DNA of 32,000 nt, from NCBI GenBank assembly GCA_003144275.1, contig NJBF01000025.1, forward strand, positions 30,001 to 62,000, in the 5' to 3' direction. Source of the DNA: Candidatus Heimdallarchaeota archaeon B3_Heim. Lineage in GTDB: Archaea > Asgardarchaeota > Heimdallarchaeia > Hodarchaeales > Hodarchaeaceae. A model generated the notes under the pieces. That model ran no database searches and had not been told where the DNA came from. It was given only the letters and a program-made list of their open reading frames with translations. Made by a program: the position numbers and the translations under genes. Shown here one piece after another: positions 1 to 9,044 of the stretch (within the stretch, counting starts at the first letter, position 1; each line of letters opens with the position of its first letter).

Positions 1-408
1 ACAAATAAATCGCAAACAGGTCTCACATTGAAAGTGGAGATCAAAAACAGAGTGTTCAGTTTGATCTATCTGACAATGGTAAGTATCCTCTCTTAGGACG
101 AGAATTTGTTCGCTAGTGACGGGGTCTTTCTCAATGATACCATCAATCAGTCGTTGAGCCGTAAATTCTTGAATAATAAAAACTATATCATTTTCTGATA
201 GCTTGGTCTCCTTAGCGACTTCTGCAATCGCAATTCGTCCATCATGTAATTTACTGAGTCGTGAAATCGTAGCAAAGGTTCGTTTAATAGGATGAGAGGA
301 GATTTTGTACTCTTTTTCGTAAGCCTGAAAGTGATTTACCTCAGAGTTTACAATTCGTGACACTGAAGCTTTTATTCGATCGGAAAAGCTTTGATTGGAT
401 GGATTCAT
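1..408 (-). CDS. Partial gene (runs off the left edge): PCI-like winged-helix segment followed by a Cys/His putative zinc-binding motif
   Basis: Not in the ORF track; translated by hand. ATG at 408, an in-frame TAA two codons upstream, open to position 1: MNPSNQSFSDRIKAS...HDGRIAIAEVAKETKLSENDIVFIIQEFTAQRLIDGIIEKD...YHCQIDQTEHSVFDLHFQCETCLRFIC. The domain call is by pattern only. Confidence 0.75.
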   Translation of the reverse strand, partial: MNPSNQSFSDRIKASVSRIVNSEVNHFQAYEKEYKISSHPIKRTFATISRLSKLHDGRIAIAEVAKETKLSENDIVFIIQEFTAQRLIDGIIEKDPVTSEQILVLREDTYHCQIDQTEHSVFDLHFQCETCLRFIC

Positions 409-1953: not shown

Positions 1954-3153
1954 GTGAGAATGGCTATAATAAAAATTCCAAAAGAAAGATTTGAGAAACG
2001 TCAGAATCAATTCCTACAAATCATAAAAGGAAAAGGGTTATCTCATTTTATAGTGGTGAACCCCAAGTCTATCTACTATTTAACAGGTTTTTCAATGATT
2101 CCAACTGAAAGGCCTTTTATGTTGATATTCAAAAACGAGGAAATTAATTTTTTCGTCCCTGAATTAGAAAAAATTCATGTCGAAGAAGAAGTACCACAAG
2201 CAAAAGAAGTAGGGAGCTATTTTGAATATCCCGATGAAATCCATCCTTTAACGTATTTCTCTAAATTTATTAAAAACAGGCTTAAGATCAAAGACAAGAT
2301 CGGTGCAGAAGGTCGTGGCGCTCGTGGTAAATGGGGGTATCAAGGGCCTCCATTTGAGGCAGTATTAAAGATATCCCTTCCCATATACTCAGAGCTGATT
2401 ACAGAAATGCGAATACTAAAAGATCCTGATGAGATTGCTTGTATTCGTGAAAGTGCTCGGTGGGGTGCAAAAGCCCATGAACTTCTTCAAAAATACACAC
2501 GCGAGGGGGAAAATGAAATTGATGTGGCCTTTCAAGCTTCACATGATGCTTCTAAGCTCATGCGGAAAGAACTAGGTTTCGAATATGCTCCTATCGGTTA
2601 CGGATCTCAACCATGTGGTGCAGGCTATCGGGGACAAATTGGGTCCTATAGTGCGATTCCTCATTCAATGACTCGAAACGCTGTTTTCCAAAGAGGTGAT
2701 ACACTCGTTACAGGAGCAAGTGCTAATATTGCTGGCTATCTGTCAGAGTTAGAACGTACTATGTTTGTAGGTGAACCGACCGAGAAGTAAAAAGGATATT
2801 TTTCTATAATGCTGAAAGCTCAACAAGTTGCTTTCAATACCTTAAAGCCAGCAATTCCTGTATCAGAAGTAGATCAGGCCTGTCGTAAAGTCTTTAAAGA
2901 ATGTGGGGTGATGAATCTTGTCCAGCATCATACGGGTCATGCCATTGGATTAGAAGGTCATGAACGACCTTTTCTAGATATAGGTATGAATAATATAATA
3001 ATGAAACCAGGAATGGTATTTACAGTGGAACCTGGTATCTACGAACGATCGATAGGTGGATTCCGACATTCTGATACCGTCATCATTACTGATGAAGGGA
3101 TGGAACGGATAACATTGTATCCCCGAAACATTGAGAGCTTGATTGTGGATTGA
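1954..3153 (+). pseudogene. M24 family (Xaa-Pro peptidase/creatinase fold) gene interrupted by one in-frame TAA at 2788-2790 (true nonsense allele or sequence error)
   Basis: ORFs 1954..2790 and 2809..3153 are in the same frame, and the join reads PTEK*KGYFSIMLKAQQ. N-terminal creatinase-like domain (VVNPKSIYYLTGF). C-terminal motifs SELERT, HHTGHAIGLEGHERP, TVEPGIY, GGFRHSDTVIIT. Confidence 0.85.
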
Positions 3154-5340: not shown

Positions 5341-5690
5341 AGGATGATTTACTATTAGTAGAAGAGAGTTACTTAAATACTTTGATGAGACCCTTAAGAG
5401 AGATTTACATTGAATTGGTTTTTATGGGCATAGATACAAAAAATTACTGACTAAGAACTATTTTCTATTCATTTCAAGTAATTGCCTGATAAGCAATACT
5501 TTGGTCAGAATTCTGAGTGAACTTGATTGATATAGTTTAAATACTTAGGTAAAGTCTATCGAAGTGTATAAATATGGAGAAATGAGAAAAACTAAAAAGA
5601 TATTTCAATATTCACTGATACAGAAAATTGTTATAAGACTGATTTTAAAGAAAAGATCCCCCTTGTTTGATTTGTTTTTGAGGTTTATAC

Positions 5691-8006
5691 ATGGCTTCTG
5701 AGAGTTCTAAATCACTAGTAATTATTTCAGTAGGTGTAGAACACTCACCCTTATTACAGAATTTTCTTGATGCTGGATTGCAATTAACAATTTTGCCGAA
5801 TACCACAGGCGATTTTAGTTTAACTGATGATAACGGGAGTGAAAAGGGAAATGACATCTGGTATCATCATGAAATCATTAAATTAGCGAGTTCAATAGTA
5901 CCTGATGATTTTGCCCAAAGCTCACTTGCCAAAATCTTTACCAAACCAATTTCACAAACGCGTTTACCACTCACTGATGCGGAGAGATTCTTAATTCAGT
6001 GGGTATCTGAGCAACATAAAGCTAAACAAGATTTTACAGATTTTTTTGTTGCTCTAAATGAATACTCTAATAAAAAAATCTCCGTTCATCCTTTAAAGCT
6101 TCCAGAGAATGCACTCGCGTTACAAGGGGAAGATTTTGATATTCCATTAAGATATTTTCAGGTAACCGGTTTTATTGATAGAAAAGCGGAAATTAAACCA
6201 GATTTAGATGAACTGAGAAATCTTCTAAACGAAACAAAAGAGAGTAAGAGTAATAAGAAGGCTAAACCAAAAATAGCAATCAAAGGACTTGATATTAAAC
6301 GAGACATATTAGGAGAGCAAGCAAAGAAAGCGCTTACTGAAGCAGATGCTATTCTGATACTGGCTAGTGACCCGTGCTCTCTGGGAATCCTATTATTACA
6401 TAAAGAATTTACTCGTGTCGTTCGTGAATCTAAAGCTCCATCAACTCTTGTTTGTCCTATTAAGTTCTCATTTCGCGAACAATTTATTCTAGAATTACTT
6501 TCCATCAAACCTAGCTTGATAGGTATAGCAGAGCTATGCTCAGGCATTATTGATCATTTAGTGGTGGGGCCTGATGATGCTAGTGAAGTTAAAACTTTGA
6601 GGACTCAAGGCTTTAATGTATTAATGGAAGATTTAACAAAAATAAAAGATGCCCAAGGTTTATCCACCATTTTAAAAGGCTTAGGAATTTCACTTAATGA
6701 TATTTCAGTTGAAAGTGAAGACCAAGGTAAAAAACGTAGTTTAGAAGAATTGGTTACCAAATTAACCTATTCAACAACAGATAACTCAACTTCTGACATT
6801 GTAGACATCGTAGAAGAAGCTGAAACTACTGTAGAACTAGCTGGCAATCAGGTCACACGACAAAAGAAACCAAAACCAGTTATTAAATTACAAGATACAG
6901 AGACACGTAATTATGATTTTGAAGATCCTGAGTTGGTCTTAACCCAAGAAATGATTGAAACATTGATGGAGGAATTGACTGAAGACTTTACTCCACCTGA
7001 TGACAAATTATCTACAACACCAGCCGAAAAGACTGAAGAAAAAATAACAGAAGAAAGTCAAGAGGCATTTACTGAAACCATTGAGAATTTTCTTAGTTTT
7101 GAAGAGTCATCCAATCGAACAGAGATGGTTCAAAAAATTGGCGAGAGAATTACTAAGAATGCAGATATGGCTGGATATGCAGCAAAGAAATTAACAAGTA
7201 CCTTAATTTCATCAAAGACACCTCCCCAGTTTTTCGAAGAATATGTTTCACTGATTAAAACAAGACCTCTTTTATTCATCAAGGAATTAGTAGATTGGTT
7301 AGTAGCGGATATAGAAACACCTGATTATGTCACATTTTCCCAAAAATCGTTGATTATTGTTAAAATTGGTAGAATTGAAACCCCCTTTGTAGAGCAAATT
7401 CTCGAACATCTAGTTAAATTTCGTATGACCCAAAAGATTAGTCCAAAAAAGAAGGAACATCTTAGAACTATTATCGGGATGATTACTGCTCGTGATGTGA
7501 CTTTACAGCGCAAAGCAATTCGTGAGTACCTAACTCATTATGAAATAGCAAAGAAACCTGATGATGTATGGCTTGGGCTACTAAAATACGATGCTGCATT
7601 AGTAGCATTAGAAATAATTGAACACGAGTCGAAAAGGGGAGTAAAAATTGTTCAAGATGCCCTTACACGTGATTTAGGGAGTTTTGGACATATTGTATAC
7701 GAAGTGTTCGCCGCCTACCAGAAAGGTGATATTGAAAGTGTTTTATCCGCCGCTGGTCCTTTATCAGATGGATTAGTTCGCAAGCAGAAACGAGTAGAAC
7801 TCGCAGAAAAAATTACAAAGTTTGGGAGTGTGCCAATCGAAATCCTGGCTAACAATGTCCAAATCGATCCTAAGGAGCTCGAGTCTCTTGTTTATGAGAT
7901 GATTAATGAAAATGAGATTAATGCGAAAATTGGAGTTGTGGAAGGGCGTCTGTGCATTATTCAATTAGGGGAGAAGGAGAATAATGATCAAACAAATAAC
8001 GGTTAA
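5691..8006 (+). CDS. Uncharacterised multidomain protein: degenerate CofD/UPF0052-like N-terminal domain, acidic linker, helical region, C-terminal PCI-like winged helix
   Basis: 771 aa ORF. N-terminal segments LVIISVGV...LTILPNTTGDF, KALTEADAILILASDPCSL and IIDHLVVGPDDA parallel CofD motifs. The C-terminus SVPIEILANNVQIDPKELESLVYEMINENEINAKI matches the PCI winged-helix pattern. Confidence applies to the CDS; the domain calls are weaker. Confidence 0.8.
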   Translation: MASESSKSLVIISVGVEHSPLLQNFLDAGLQLTILPNTTGDFSLTDDNGSEKGNDIWYHHEIIKLASSIVPDDFAQSSLAKIFTKPISQTRLPLTDAERFLIQWVSEQHKAKQDFTDFFVALNEYSNKKISVHPLKLPENALALQGEDFDIPLRYFQVTGFIDRKAEIKPDLDELRNLLNETKESKSNKKAKPKIAIKGLDIKRDILGEQAKKALTEADAILILASDPCSLGILLLHKEFTRVVRESKAPSTLVCPIKFSFREQFILELLSIKPSLIGIAELCSGIIDHLVVGPDDASEVKTLRTQGFNVLMEDLTKIKDAQGLSTILKGLGISLNDISVESEDQGKKRSLEELVTKLTYSTTDNSTSDIVDIVEEAETTVELAGNQVTRQKKPKPVIKLQDTETRNYDFEDPELVLTQEMIETLMEELTEDFTPPDDKLSTTPAEKTEEKITEESQEAFTETIENFLSFEESSNRTEMVQKIGERITKNADMAGYAAKKLTSTLISSKTPPQFFEEYVSLIKTRPLLFIKELVDWLVADIETPDYVTFSQKSLIIVKIGRIETPFVEQILEHLVKFRMTQKISPKKKEHLRTIIGMITARDVTLQRKAIREYLTHYEIAKKPDDVWLGLLKYDAALVALEIIEHESKRGVKIVQDALTRDLGSFGHIVYEVFAAYQKGDIESVLSAAGPLSDGLVRKQKRVELAEKITKFGSVPIEILANNVQIDPKELESLVYEMINENEINAKIGVVEGRLCIIQLGEKENNDQTNNG

Positions 8007-8039: not shown

Positions 8040-9044
8040 TTAAAAGACCCCAGCACTAATTAATATTGCAATGAGTAATAGAGTTACTATTACAATCCAG
8101 AGGACGTTCAGACGTCGCACTTTCGCAGATTGACGTTTAGATAAGCCCCGGCTCTTCACTCCAAAAATCCAAAAAACGCTTGTACACGAAAGAATAATGG
8201 CTAATATGTTTAATAGAAGTAAATTTGCAGCTTTCAAGGCCAGATCGAATTGGCCAATAGCTCCAAGAATTCCAATGGTTGCAGCAGGTGGACACAAAGA
8301 AGCAGCAATAGCTACACCGACAATAGATACATCTAATCCACGTGCAACAATTATCCCTGCAGCTAAACCTCCCAGTAATGCTAATGATATTGTCGGAATT
8401 GTGAGAGCTGTTCGGTTTAAAACTTCAGAATAAATCTGATTCCCTCCTAAATCGGTATCATGTATTTTTATAGCATCGACTTCATTGAAAACGTATCCTA
8501 TCAATGCCCCTAAACTAATTGTGGTAAAAATTCCAGTGAACTCGGAAAAAATTCCTTTTCTTACAAAAGACGTTGTTTCTAAACTTAATAATCCAAGTGA
8601 CGTTAATACTATTGGTCCTAGAAGCGGTGCAACTATCATACTAGCAATTATAACTACTACATCATTATTTAATAATCCGAAAGTCGCTAAAGCTGCCGCT
8701 AGTCCATTCATTAAGAGATAAGTGTACGAAAGGCCAGAAATCTTCCCCACATTTGCCAAGATCTCTTCTCGGTTTACTCCCGCGCTCTCAGGGAGACTAT
8801 TTTCACCTTTTTTACTCGAAATTAACAAAGACAAAGGTCTGACTACAATGTCACCATATGCGACCCCGACTCCCCTGGCTTTCAATTCTTCGATTAATAC
8901 ATTTGTTTGGTAATCTTCGATTCGAAGCTCATACCTAATTGTTTCACCAAAGTCGTAGGTCGTAGCCAAGATTGAGAATTCTTTTAAGAATTCGTCCATC
9001 AAGGTTTTTCGATCAGTAGGTAAAGTAACCTGAATTTCCTTCAC
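8040..9044 (-). CDS. DUF389 / TIGR00341 family membrane protein
   Basis: VVIIASMIVAPLLGPI and VGVAIAASLCPPAATIG are hallmark DUF389 motifs. Short soluble N-terminal domain, then about 7 hydrophobic segments. Confidence 0.9.
   Translation of the reverse strand: MKEIQVTLPTDRKTLMDEFLKEFSILATTYDFGETIRYELRIEDYQTNVLIEELKARGVGVAYGDIVVRPLSLLISSKKGENSLPESAGVNREEILANVGKISGLSYTYLLMNGLAAALATFGLLNNDVVVIIASMIVAPLLGPIVLTSLGLLSLETTSFVRKGIFSEFTGIFTTISLGALIGYVFNEVDAIKIHDTDLGGNQIYSEVLNRTALTIPTISLALLGGLAAGIIVARGLDVSIVGVAIAASLCPPAATIGILGAIGQFDLALKAANLLLLNILAIILSCTSVFWIFGVKSRGLSKRQSAKVRRLNVLWIVIVTLLLIAILISAGVF

What the first reader, a model, noticed from the sequence alone, without database searches (positions are those of the whole stretch)
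5691..8006. Apparent fusion of a degenerate CofD-like fold with a helical region and a PCI-like winged helix
Seen: the first ~330 aa follow CofD/UPF0052 motif order, but the Gly-rich substrate loop is replaced (IISVGVEHSP where GGxGG is expected), NTGDD appears as NTTGDF, and GPSNP appears as LASDP. An acidic, low-complexity linker follows (~aa 360-460), then a ~240 aa helical region, then a terminal segment fitting the PCI winged-helix pattern (from ~7803: SVPIEILANNVQIDPKELESLVYEMINENEINAKI). Known: CofD is the 2-phospho-L-lactate transferase of F420 synthesis, and PCI domains (helical repeats plus winged helix) scaffold the eukaryotic proteasome lid, COP9 signalosome and eIF3. Inference: a metabolic enzyme fold repurposed as a catalytically dead ligand sensor and joined to a eukaryote-like scaffold domain. 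I know of no described protein with this architecture.
Basis: partly seen in the sequence, partly recalled or inferred. Interest (0 to 1): 0.78.

Follow-up and report, generated by a model that had tools for sequence, protein, structure and literature searches.

The report
CofD-fold domain fused to PCI scaffold
A conserved 771-residue protein of Heimdall-group Asgard archaea joins a diverged copy of the coenzyme-F420 enzyme CofD to a eukaryote-style PCI scaffold module that is predicted to pair with itself; the domain combination is real and I found no description of it, but its function is still inferred.

Summary
ORF 5691-8006 (+) encodes 771 aa made of three parts.

2. An acidic, disordered linker (aa ~346-470) containing one conserved island.
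3. A two-part PCI module: a helical solenoid plus a winged helix. Pfam PCI scores above its cut-off. The top PDB, Swiss-Prot and Atlas matches are CSN2, Rpn6, CSN4 and eIF3 subunits.

The fusion is not a misassembly. One frame of 730-960 aa carries both halves in 67 of 400 Asgard genomes. These genomes fall in five families of the window's class plus one family of another class. True CofD sits elsewhere in the same genomes.

"Catalytically dead" is not shown. The CofD signature motifs are lost. Even so, G15, D41, E61, R154, D227, S230 and D288 stay nearly invariant across the whole family, which suggests a working pocket with a new specificity.

Two findings are new here. The PCI module is predicted to homodimerise through its solenoid (ipSAE 0.79, best control 0.00). 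In one family the C-terminus has gained a C2H2 zinc finger, an HhH module or an H1-like tail, which hints at work on nucleic acid.

PCI-type winged helices are common in Asgard; this fusion is not. The scan flagged the same family in another genome.

The parts
5680..5684 (+). Shine-Dalgarno-like GAGGT, 6 nt upstream of the ATG
   Evidence: Read directly from the sequence. The start is supported by the conserved N-terminus MxxExxKxLVIIS in 43 homologues.
5691..8006 (+). Whole gene, 771 aa (P0001). It is single-copy in the genome.
   Evidence: Full-length homologues of 52-88% identity were found.
5691..6725 (+). CofD/FbiA-fold domain, aa 1-345. It is a diverged paralogue of CofD. Nearly invariant residues are G15, D41, E61, P134, R154, D227, S230, D288 and G307.
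6726..7100 (+). Acidic, mostly disordered linker, aa 346-470
   Evidence: It is 25% D/E. Conservation is low at aa 361-400. pLDDT is below 50 for aa 396-412 and 431-454.
6888..6989 (+). Conserved island inside the linker, aa 400-433 (LxDTExxNYDFxDPxLxLTQEMIExLMxEL), with a short predicted helix at aa 419-430
   Evidence: L400, D402, F410, L425, E428 and L429 are invariant among 43 close homologues. The island is not conserved in the deep family. It was not docked with confidence in the model.
7101..7775 (+). Helical-repeat (solenoid) part of the PCI module, aa 471-695
7314..7763 (+). Predicted two-fold homodimer interface within the solenoid (aa 542-547, 550, 553-554, 585-606, 622-637, 660-668, 686-691)
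   Evidence: complex prediction gave ipSAE 0.79, with best control 0.00. Interface residues are only marginally more conserved than the rest.
7776..7970 (+). PCI winged helix, aa 696-760
   Evidence: Pfam PF01399 scores 25.9-29.9 bits against a cut-off of 22. The winged helix alone superposes on Rpn and CSN winged helices at rmsd 1.7-2.0 A over 64-67 residues.

Best explanation
P0001 is a single-copy, class-wide conserved Heimdallarchaeial protein. It tethers a neofunctionalised CofD-fold head to a PCI scaffold.

Shown by computation:
- The head is a diverged paralogue of the F420-biosynthesis enzyme CofD, which is encoded separately in the same genomes.
- The tail is a genuine solenoid-plus-winged-helix PCI module.
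- The two are joined in one reading frame by an acidic, disordered tether of about 120 residues.

Inferred:
- The head no longer makes F420-0. It has lost the Gly-rich loop and one metal-binding Asp. It keeps a selected acidic/polar pocket (G15, D41, E61, R154, D227, S230, D288), so it most likely binds a nucleotide-diphosphate-type ligand. It could act as a sensor, as the CofD-fold regulator YvcK/GlmR does with UDP-GlcNAc, or as a transferase with a new acceptor.
- The PCI module forms a symmetric homodimer through its solenoid. This leaves two winged helices and two tethered heads free.
- The dimer acts as an adaptor that couples the ligand state, or the activity, of the head to a macromolecular partner.
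- One family of relatives independently added a C2H2 zinc finger, an (HhH)2 module or a histone-H1-like Lys-rich tail directly after the winged helix. The partner or site of action is therefore probably nucleic acid or chromatin.
For: Architecture:
- Pfam PCI scores above its cut-off and there is a weak CofD hit.
- hhalign to a Heimdall CofD profile gives 97.4% probability.
- The C-module's best matches are all PCI subunits in PDB, Swiss-Prot and ESM Atlas.

Conserved fusion:
- 50 full-length homologues were found.
- Only 61 representatives exist among 1.84 billion proteins, many of them 720-920 aa.
- 67 of 400 genomes of the phylum carry it, by family f1 18/21, f3 1/1, f4 30/31, f5 3/3, f6 10/12 and f21 4/4.

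Paralogue, not replacement:
- True CofD (TIGR01819, 296 bits) is present in the window's own genome and in 77 of 83 genomes of the class.

Selected pocket:
- The residues that stay invariant across the deep family sit at or next to the CofD motif positions.
- The metal ligands of FbiA/CofD are known from PMC7253369 and PMC8498797.

Dimer:
- ipSAE was 0.78-0.79 in three runs, with best control 0.00.
- Partner pLDDT was 83-85 and the runs agreed on at least 95% of contacts.
- In calibration, 20 of 30 true homodimers and 1 of 23 single chains reached the mark.

Nucleic-acid hint:
- HHH_5 scores 33 bits, above its cut-off, in P0072, and an HC2-like tail occurs in P0075.
- C2H2, Lys-rich and HhH tails occur in f4 loci.
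- zf-C2H2 scores 23.9 bits in P0100.
Against: - No ligand, partner or activity has been measured.
- The window's own protein has no nucleic-acid-binding tail and, by my count from the translation, its winged helix is net acidic. The nucleic-acid inference therefore rests on relatives in a single family.
- Predicted interface residues are only marginally more conserved than the rest (0.80 vs 0.75, p about 0.04). The difference is not significant in the deep alignment.
- No gene neighbour is conserved across families, so there is no operon clue.
- A stand-alone N-domain gene exists in one soil contig, so the head can function without the PCI part.
Confidence: 0.5

Rival explanations
1. It is an active, retargeted phosphotransferase. 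The CofD-like head still catalyses attack of a hydroxyl group on the beta-phosphate of a nucleotide-diphospho donor, releasing NMP, but on a new acceptor. The acceptor could be macromolecular. The PCI dimer, and in some lineages the DNA-binding tails, deliver the head to that substrate.
Against: Only one Gly of the Gly-rich loop survives. The FbiA-D45 position is Gly/Ala in the hhalign register and by N-x3-D spacing. No donor-making partner of the CofC type is linked to the gene.
Confidence: 0.25
2. It is a subunit of a proto-lid/CSN/eIF3-like multi-PCI/MPN complex. The PCI module would join other PCI proteins through winged-helix beta-sheets and recruit an MPN/JAMM deubiquitinase-like enzyme.
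For: The best structural matches are CSN2, Rpn6 and CSN4. The genome encodes 3-4 JAB/MPN proteins.
Against: P0001 is the only protein in the genome whose PCI hit is above cut-off and is not explained by another family. The other above-cut-off frame is an ArsR-type HTH, and two more are sub-threshold. There is no gene linkage to MPN genes. The protein ends about 10 residues after the winged helix, so it lacks the C-terminal helix used for the lid/CSN helical bundle. The predicted self-interface is in the solenoid, not the winged helix.
Confidence: 0.12
3. It is an ordinary CofD isoenzyme for F420 synthesis, as the automatic name '2-phospho-L-lactate transferase' on the LC_3 homologue implies.
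For: It has the CofD fold and weak Pfam/TIGRFAM hits. The database name on OLS25325.1 and on the AFDB entry says so.
Against: TIGR01819 scores 18-21 bits against a cut-off of 257. The signature motifs are lost. A true CofD is present in the same genomes.
Confidence: 0.03
4. It is an artefact: a misassembly or a chimeric gene call joining two separate genes.
For: Rare exceptions exist. One soil contig has an in-frame TAA in the linker, one short contig is frameshifted, and one contig carries a stand-alone N-domain gene.
Against: The same collinear frame is seen in 67 genomes, including closed or single-contig assemblies (for example G066, G064, G015, G016 and G279), and in many independent metagenomes.
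Confidence: 0.01

Closest known systems
CofD / FbiA (2-phospho-L-lactate or PEP transferase of F420 synthesis; PF01933, TIGR01819; PDB 3C3D, 6UVX)
   Different: It scores far below the family cut-offs. The GGTG loop is reduced to one Gly. The FbiA-D45 metal-ligand position is Gly/Ala. It is fused to a linker and a PCI module. It coexists with a true CofD, so it is not the F420 enzyme.
YvcK / GlmR (UPF0052, TIGR01826): CofD-fold proteins that bind UDP-sugars and act as regulators (function from my own knowledge and the NCBIfam name)
   Different: It is structurally nearer to CofD/FbiA than to YvcK. There was no TIGR01826 hit. YvcK proteins have no PCI module.
Eukaryotic PCI subunits CSN2 / Rpn6 (PSMD11) / CSN4 / eIF3e,m,c (PF01399)
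   Same: It has the two-part helical solenoid plus C-terminal winged helix. The Pfam score is above the cut-off. These subunits are the top matches in every structure library searched.
   Different: It has no C-terminal bundle helix and no evident set of paralogous PCI partners or linked MPN subunit. It is predicted to self-pair through the solenoid and not to extend a winged-helix sheet. It carries an enzyme-fold head.
Nucleic-acid-binding PCI pairs with an acidic disordered partner: Sac3-Thp1-Sem1 (TREX-2) and Thp3-Csn12-Sem1 (PMC3675071, PMC9410885)
   Same: These are two PCI modules acting as a pair, associated with nucleic acid and with an acidic disordered segment. Here the protein has an acidic linker with aromatic residues just before its own PCI module, and relatives carry DNA-binding tails.
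   Different: Those are heterodimers and bind nucleic acid through basic winged-helix surfaces. By my count from the translation, the winged helix here is net acidic. The linker did not dock on the PCI part in the model. The resemblance is a lead only.
Other Asgard PCI-type winged-helix proteins (UFL1/DDRGK-like tandem winged helices + Vps28-C; kinase + PCI; HEAT/TPR + PCI + RING; compare PMC10936438)
   Same: They share the PCI-type winged helix detected by PF01399.
   Different: They show no similarity to the CofD-like head (hmmsearch --max), have different architectures, and occur in different lineages.

Membership tests
CofD/FbiA (PF01933, TIGR01819) | CofD three-dimensional fold over the whole domain | tested here: met
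CofD/FbiA (PF01933, TIGR01819) | Score above the curated family cut-offs | tested here: not met
   PF01933 scores 21.8-22 bits against a cut-off of 30. TIGR01819 scores 18-21 bits against 257. The genome's real CofD scores 296 bits.
CofD/FbiA (PF01933, TIGR01819) | Gly-rich N-terminal loop (GGTG/GGVGG) | tested here: not met
   It aligns to S-(A/V)-G-V-E. Only G15 is conserved.
CofD/FbiA (PF01933, TIGR01819) | First catalytic metal ligand (FbiA Asp45, first acidic residue of GDD/AED) | tested here: not met
   hhalign and the N-x3-D spacing put Gly/Ala (aa 40) at this position. The conserved D41 matches the second Asp. A one-residue loop shift cannot be excluded without coordinates.
CofD/FbiA (PF01933, TIGR01819) | Second catalytic metal ligand (FbiA Asp57 = M. 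mazei CofD Asp46, in SPDxD) | tested here: inconclusive
   hhalign is unreliable in this loop. By secondary structure, the equivalent helix start carries H60 and the invariant E61.
CofD/FbiA (PF01933, TIGR01819) | GPSNPxxS motif | tested here: not met
   It aligns to L-A-S-D-P-C-S. In the deep family only D227 and S230 persist.
CofD/FbiA (PF01933, TIGR01819) | LPPG:Fo 2-phospho-L-lactate transferase activity | not testable with these tools
   This needs an enzyme assay.
YvcK/GlmR (UPF0052, TIGR01826) | Family HMM match, and closest structural neighbours are UPF0052 proteins | tested here: not met
PCI domain (PF01399) | Winged helix scoring above Pfam's gathering cut-off | tested here: met
   It scores 25.9 bits (whole protein) to 29.9 bits (aa 690-771) against a cut-off of 22. 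The same holds in 9 of 10 distant family members.
PCI domain (PF01399) | Helical-repeat solenoid directly before the winged helix (two-part PCI fold) | tested here: met
Proteasome lid / CSN / eIF3 PCI subunits | C-terminal helix after the winged helix that joins the helical bundle | tested here: not met
   The protein ends 10 residues after the winged helix. This is also true in families f1, f3, f6 and f21.
Proteasome lid / CSN / eIF3 PCI subunits | A set of paralogous PCI partners plus an MPN pair in the same genome | tested here: inconclusive
   Beyond P0001 there is an ArsR-type HTH and two sub-threshold winged-helix hits. MPN/JAB genes exist but are unlinked. Divergent partners could be missed.
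Proteasome lid / CSN / eIF3 PCI subunits | Assembly into a multi-subunit complex | not testable with these tools
   Only self-association was modelled.

The most novel reading that the evidence does not exclude
This family may preserve a pre-eukaryotic state of the PCI scaffold: a stand-alone, homodimeric solenoid-plus-winged-helix protein in the archaeal class nearest to eukaryotes. It would use a repurposed nucleotide-binding or phosphotransferase head to couple a metabolite signal, or a new phosphodiester-forming activity, to chromatin or RNA. It would be a sister or precursor form to the CSN2/Rpn6-type subunits, from before they diversified into six-membered horseshoes.
Probability: 0.15. 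Interest if true: 0.85.

Novelty: new variant of a known kind. Interest (0 to 1): 0.6.

Why it matters
PCI/MPN complexes (proteasome lid, COP9 signalosome, eIF3) are hallmarks of eukaryotes. A 2018 paper stated that such complexes were not known in archaea (PMC6043591).

This finding has three features that bear on that question:
- It is a full two-part PCI module, not just a winged helix.
- It is conserved across Heimdallarchaeia.
- It is predicted to self-pair.

Together these give a concrete, testable candidate for how the scaffold looked before eukaryotes.

The fused CofD-fold head adds a second point of interest. It is a clear case of an F420-pathway enzyme duplicated and retooled, with a small set of invariant residues ready for mutagenesis.

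In one family the C-terminus carries interchangeable zinc-finger, HhH or H1-like tails. These supply natural variants for testing a nucleic-acid role.

There is also a practical annotation point. Database names for this family, 'PCI domain-containing protein' and '2-phospho-L-lactate transferase', each describe only half of it, and the second is probably wrong.

Tried and rejected
- **PDB sequence searches.** Searches with the protein and with both domain profiles gave only noise or a weak eIF3e winged-helix hit (E 0.13). Structure was needed.
- **hhalign against a single CofD sequence.** This anchored only the GPSNP region. A 31-sequence CofD profile was needed.
- **Gene neighbourhood.** I took 21 loci from 6 families, called ORFs and clustered them. 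No partner is conserved across families. DUF389 is a convergent neighbour throughout f1 and in one f4 genome only. The flanking clusters in f4 and f6 have no Pfam match.
- **Own-genome paralogues.** None were found.
- **Other 'PCI' hits in the genome.** One is an ArsR-type HTH and two are sub-threshold winged helices. The 365-aa protein at the window's left edge gave only a sub-threshold Prok-RING_2 hit and no PCI hit.
- **The ~790-aa PCI-hit proteins of the largest Asgard family.** I suspected these were the same architecture. They are not. They are UFL1/DDRGK-like tandem winged helices with a Vps28 C-domain and have no CofD-like part. My first fetch used the wrong gene bounds and was repeated.
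- **Sem1/DSS1-like docking of the acidic linker on its own PCI module.** The linker stayed at low pLDDT in the cis model, so this has no support.
- **Interface conservation as independent support for the dimer.** The effect is marginal.
- **Model coordinates.** These are not exposed, so I could not test 3D clustering of the invariant residues or superpose on FbiA.
- **Expression.** No RNA holder was listed among the public runs.
- **Literature.** No paper holds both 'CofD' and 'PCI domain'. Eme 2023 and a 2026 Asgard structural-clustering preprint do not mention PCI or CofD in their main text.
Full report
**Observation.**
The window is AT-rich (about 37% GC). It carries a 771-codon ORF at 5691-8006 on the + strand, preceded by GAGGT 6 nt before the ATG. 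The winged-helix string starts at aa 713 (nt 7827), not at ~7803. Homologue names place the window in a Hodarchaeales (Heimdallarchaeia, Asgard) genome of 3.95 Mb that is 94% complete.

**N-terminal domain.**
Sequence libraries give only sub-threshold CofD hits. PF01933 scores 22 bits against a cut-off of 30, and TIGR01819 scores 18-21 bits against 257.
- An AF2 model of aa 1-345, built on 43 homologues, is confident (pLDDT 85, pTM 0.87).
- Its top 19 Foldseek PDB matches are exclusively CofD, FbiA and UPF0052 proteins.
- A profile-profile alignment against 31 Heimdall CofDs gives 97.4% probability and E 4e-11 over 297 columns.
- The ESM Atlas's independent model agrees.

The genome has a true CofD elsewhere (TIGR01819 at 296 bits). 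So do 77 of 83 genomes of the class. The head is therefore an extra, diverged paralogue.

**Is the head dead?**
FbiA holds its catalytic metal with Asp45 and Asp57. The latter equals CofD Asp46, which is needed for activity (PMC7253369, PMC8498797). I used the genome's CofD as a bridge to the solved structures and then hhalign. This gave the following correspondences:
- The GGTGTPK loop aligns to (A/V)GVE(L/H)SP.
- NTGDD aligns to NTT(G/A)DF, with the conserved D41 on the second Asp.
- GPSNPxxS aligns to LA(S)DPCS.
- The SPDxD region aligns poorly.

The CofD signatures are therefore largely gone. However, I also aligned 44 sequences spanning all families that carry the protein. The only nearly invariant N-domain residues are G15, D41, E61, P134, R154, D227, S230, D288 and G307. 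Most of these lie at or beside the old active-site motifs. Selection of this kind over class-level divergence argues for a functioning pocket with changed specificity. Whether it senses a ligand or catalyses a reaction cannot be decided here.

**Linker.**
The segment aa 346-470 is 25% D/E, poorly conserved at aa 361-400 and low in confidence. It contains a conserved island at aa 400-433 among close relatives, which is not conserved in the deep family.

**C-terminal module.**
Pfam PCI is above its cut-off (25.9-29.9 bits against 22), and this holds in 9 of 10 distant members. The model of aa 396-771 (pLDDT 76) shows about 17 helices followed by a winged helix.
- Foldseek PDB hits are led by CSN2, Rpn6, CSN3/4, lid subunits and eIF3.
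- All 30 top Swiss-Prot matches are eukaryotic PCI subunits, and the Atlas agrees.

**Fusion and distribution.**
- A word-indexed search returned 50 hits of 52-88% identity, mostly full-length (760-793 aa), with a few partial records.
- An exhaustive profile search of 1.84 billion representatives found only 61 relatives, many of them 720-920 aa.
- Named members include Hodarchaeales, Heimdallarchaeota LC_3 (auto-named '2-phospho-L-lactate transferase'), Heimdallarchaeaceae and Hermodarchaeota.
- Across 400 genomes of the phylum, the family is found in 67: f1 18/21, f3 1/1, f4 30/31, f5 3/3, f6 10/12, f21 4/4. It is absent from f7 (0/12), f20 (0/135) and all other families.
- It is single-copy in the window's genome.
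- Exceptions are rare. There is a stand-alone N-domain gene in a soil contig, a collinear gene with one in-frame TAA in the linker, a frameshifted copy on a short contig, and a fragment cut by a contig end.

Misassembly is excluded.

**Context.**
Gene neighbourhoods from 21 loci show synteny only within families and no partner shared across families.

Pfam's PCI model essentially covers the winged helix. It hits 305 of 400 genomes. I checked the similarly sized ~790-aa proteins in f20, f19 and f21. They are a different family: UFL1/DDRGK-like tandem winged helices plus a Vps28 C-domain. Other architectures were also seen, namely a kinase with a beta-propeller, and HEAT/TPR repeats with a RING finger. 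This agrees with remarks in PMC10936438. PCI-type winged helices are therefore common in Asgard. What is particular here is the CofD-fold head together with the full two-part PCI module.

**New leads.**

(a) *Self-association.* Two copies of aa 455-771 score ipSAE 0.79 (three runs, 0.78-0.79), with a best control of 0.00. Partner pLDDT is 83-85 and the runs agree on at least 95% of contacts. In calibration, the mark was reached by 20 of 30 true homodimers and 1 of 23 single chains. My own alignment was used, so these counts hold only roughly. The symmetric interface lies in the solenoid (aa 542-691), not in the winged-helix sheet used in lid and CSN. This makes recall of solved PCI complexes less likely, though not excluded. 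Interface conservation adds little.

(b) *C-terminal tails.* In family f4 the position after the winged helix carries one of three modules, depending on the lineage: a C2H2 zinc finger, Lys-rich H1/HC2-like repeats, or an (HhH)2 module. An f5 member has a mixed Lys-rich tail. Three unrelated nucleic-acid-binding modules acquired at the same site suggest the family acts at DNA or RNA. The window's protein has no such tail and its winged helix is acidic, so for this protein the point is an inference from relatives.

**Verdict.**
The pseudo-enzyme claim is unproven and somewhat doubtful.

The most likely reading (about 0.5) is a homodimeric PCI adaptor with a tethered, retooled nucleotide-ligand-binding CofD-fold head, possibly acting on nucleic acid.

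The rivals are:
- an active, retargeted phosphotransferase (0.25);
- a subunit of a proto PCI/MPN complex (0.12);
- a plain CofD isoenzyme (0.03);
- an artefact (0.01).

I found no published description. The scan's first-stage readers noted the same family on another genome.

Noticed in passing
window 1954-3153 (+): An M24 (Xaa-Pro type) peptidase gene is interrupted by a single in-frame TAA at 2788-2790 (GAG AAG TAA AAA GGA). The Creatinase_N and M24 N-part lie before it and the M24 C-part after it. A sister genome (L075) has one intact 402-aa ORF. It could be a pseudogene, a sequencing error or read-through.
   Followed up: partly
L097:1720-3573 (soil metagenome contig): A relative of the CofD-PCI family has both halves in one frame, separated by a single TAA inside the disordered linker. 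It is a natural or artefactual split exactly at the domain boundary.
   Followed up: partly
L094:3001-4014 (30-kb soil metagenome contig, 28% GC): This is a stand-alone 337-aa gene that matches only the CofD-like head of this family (141 bits to the family profile). It is followed by a Na+/H+ exchanger gene, so the head also exists without a PCI module.
   Followed up: partly
L084, L085, L087 (C2H2); L083, L088, P0075 (Lys-rich); L086, P0072 (HhH): Orthologues in one Heimdallarchaeial family carry interchangeable C-terminal tails: a eukaryote-style C2H2 zinc finger, KKPxxTKK histone-H1-like repeats, or an (HhH)2 module.
   Followed up: yes
L110:502-2868(-), L111:358-2730(+), L115:295-2703(+): These ~790-aa proteins are common in the largest Asgard family sampled. 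They have tandem PCI-type winged helices that also match UFL1 (E3 UFM1 ligase) and DDRGK models, plus a C-terminal Vps28 domain.
   Followed up: partly
L103:465-2972(-) and L104:103-3489(-): Two other Asgard PCI-winged-helix architectures were seen. One is HEAT + TPR + PCI + RING finger (835 aa). The other is beta-propeller/FG-GAP + PCI + Ser/Thr kinase (1128 aa).
   Followed up: no
window 1-408 (-), full gene L091:2812-3909 (-): Earlier notes flagged this 365-aa protein as PCI-like plus RING-like. In Pfam it gives only a sub-threshold Prok-RING_2 hit (18.3 bits against a cut-off of 22.4) and no PCI hit. It is not linked to the target gene outside the closest relatives.
   Followed up: partly
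window 8040-9044 (-): A DUF389 membrane-protein gene is the convergent downstream neighbour of the target in all 7 loci of the window's family, and also in one genome of a different family (L086). In other families the neighbours differ.
   Followed up: partly
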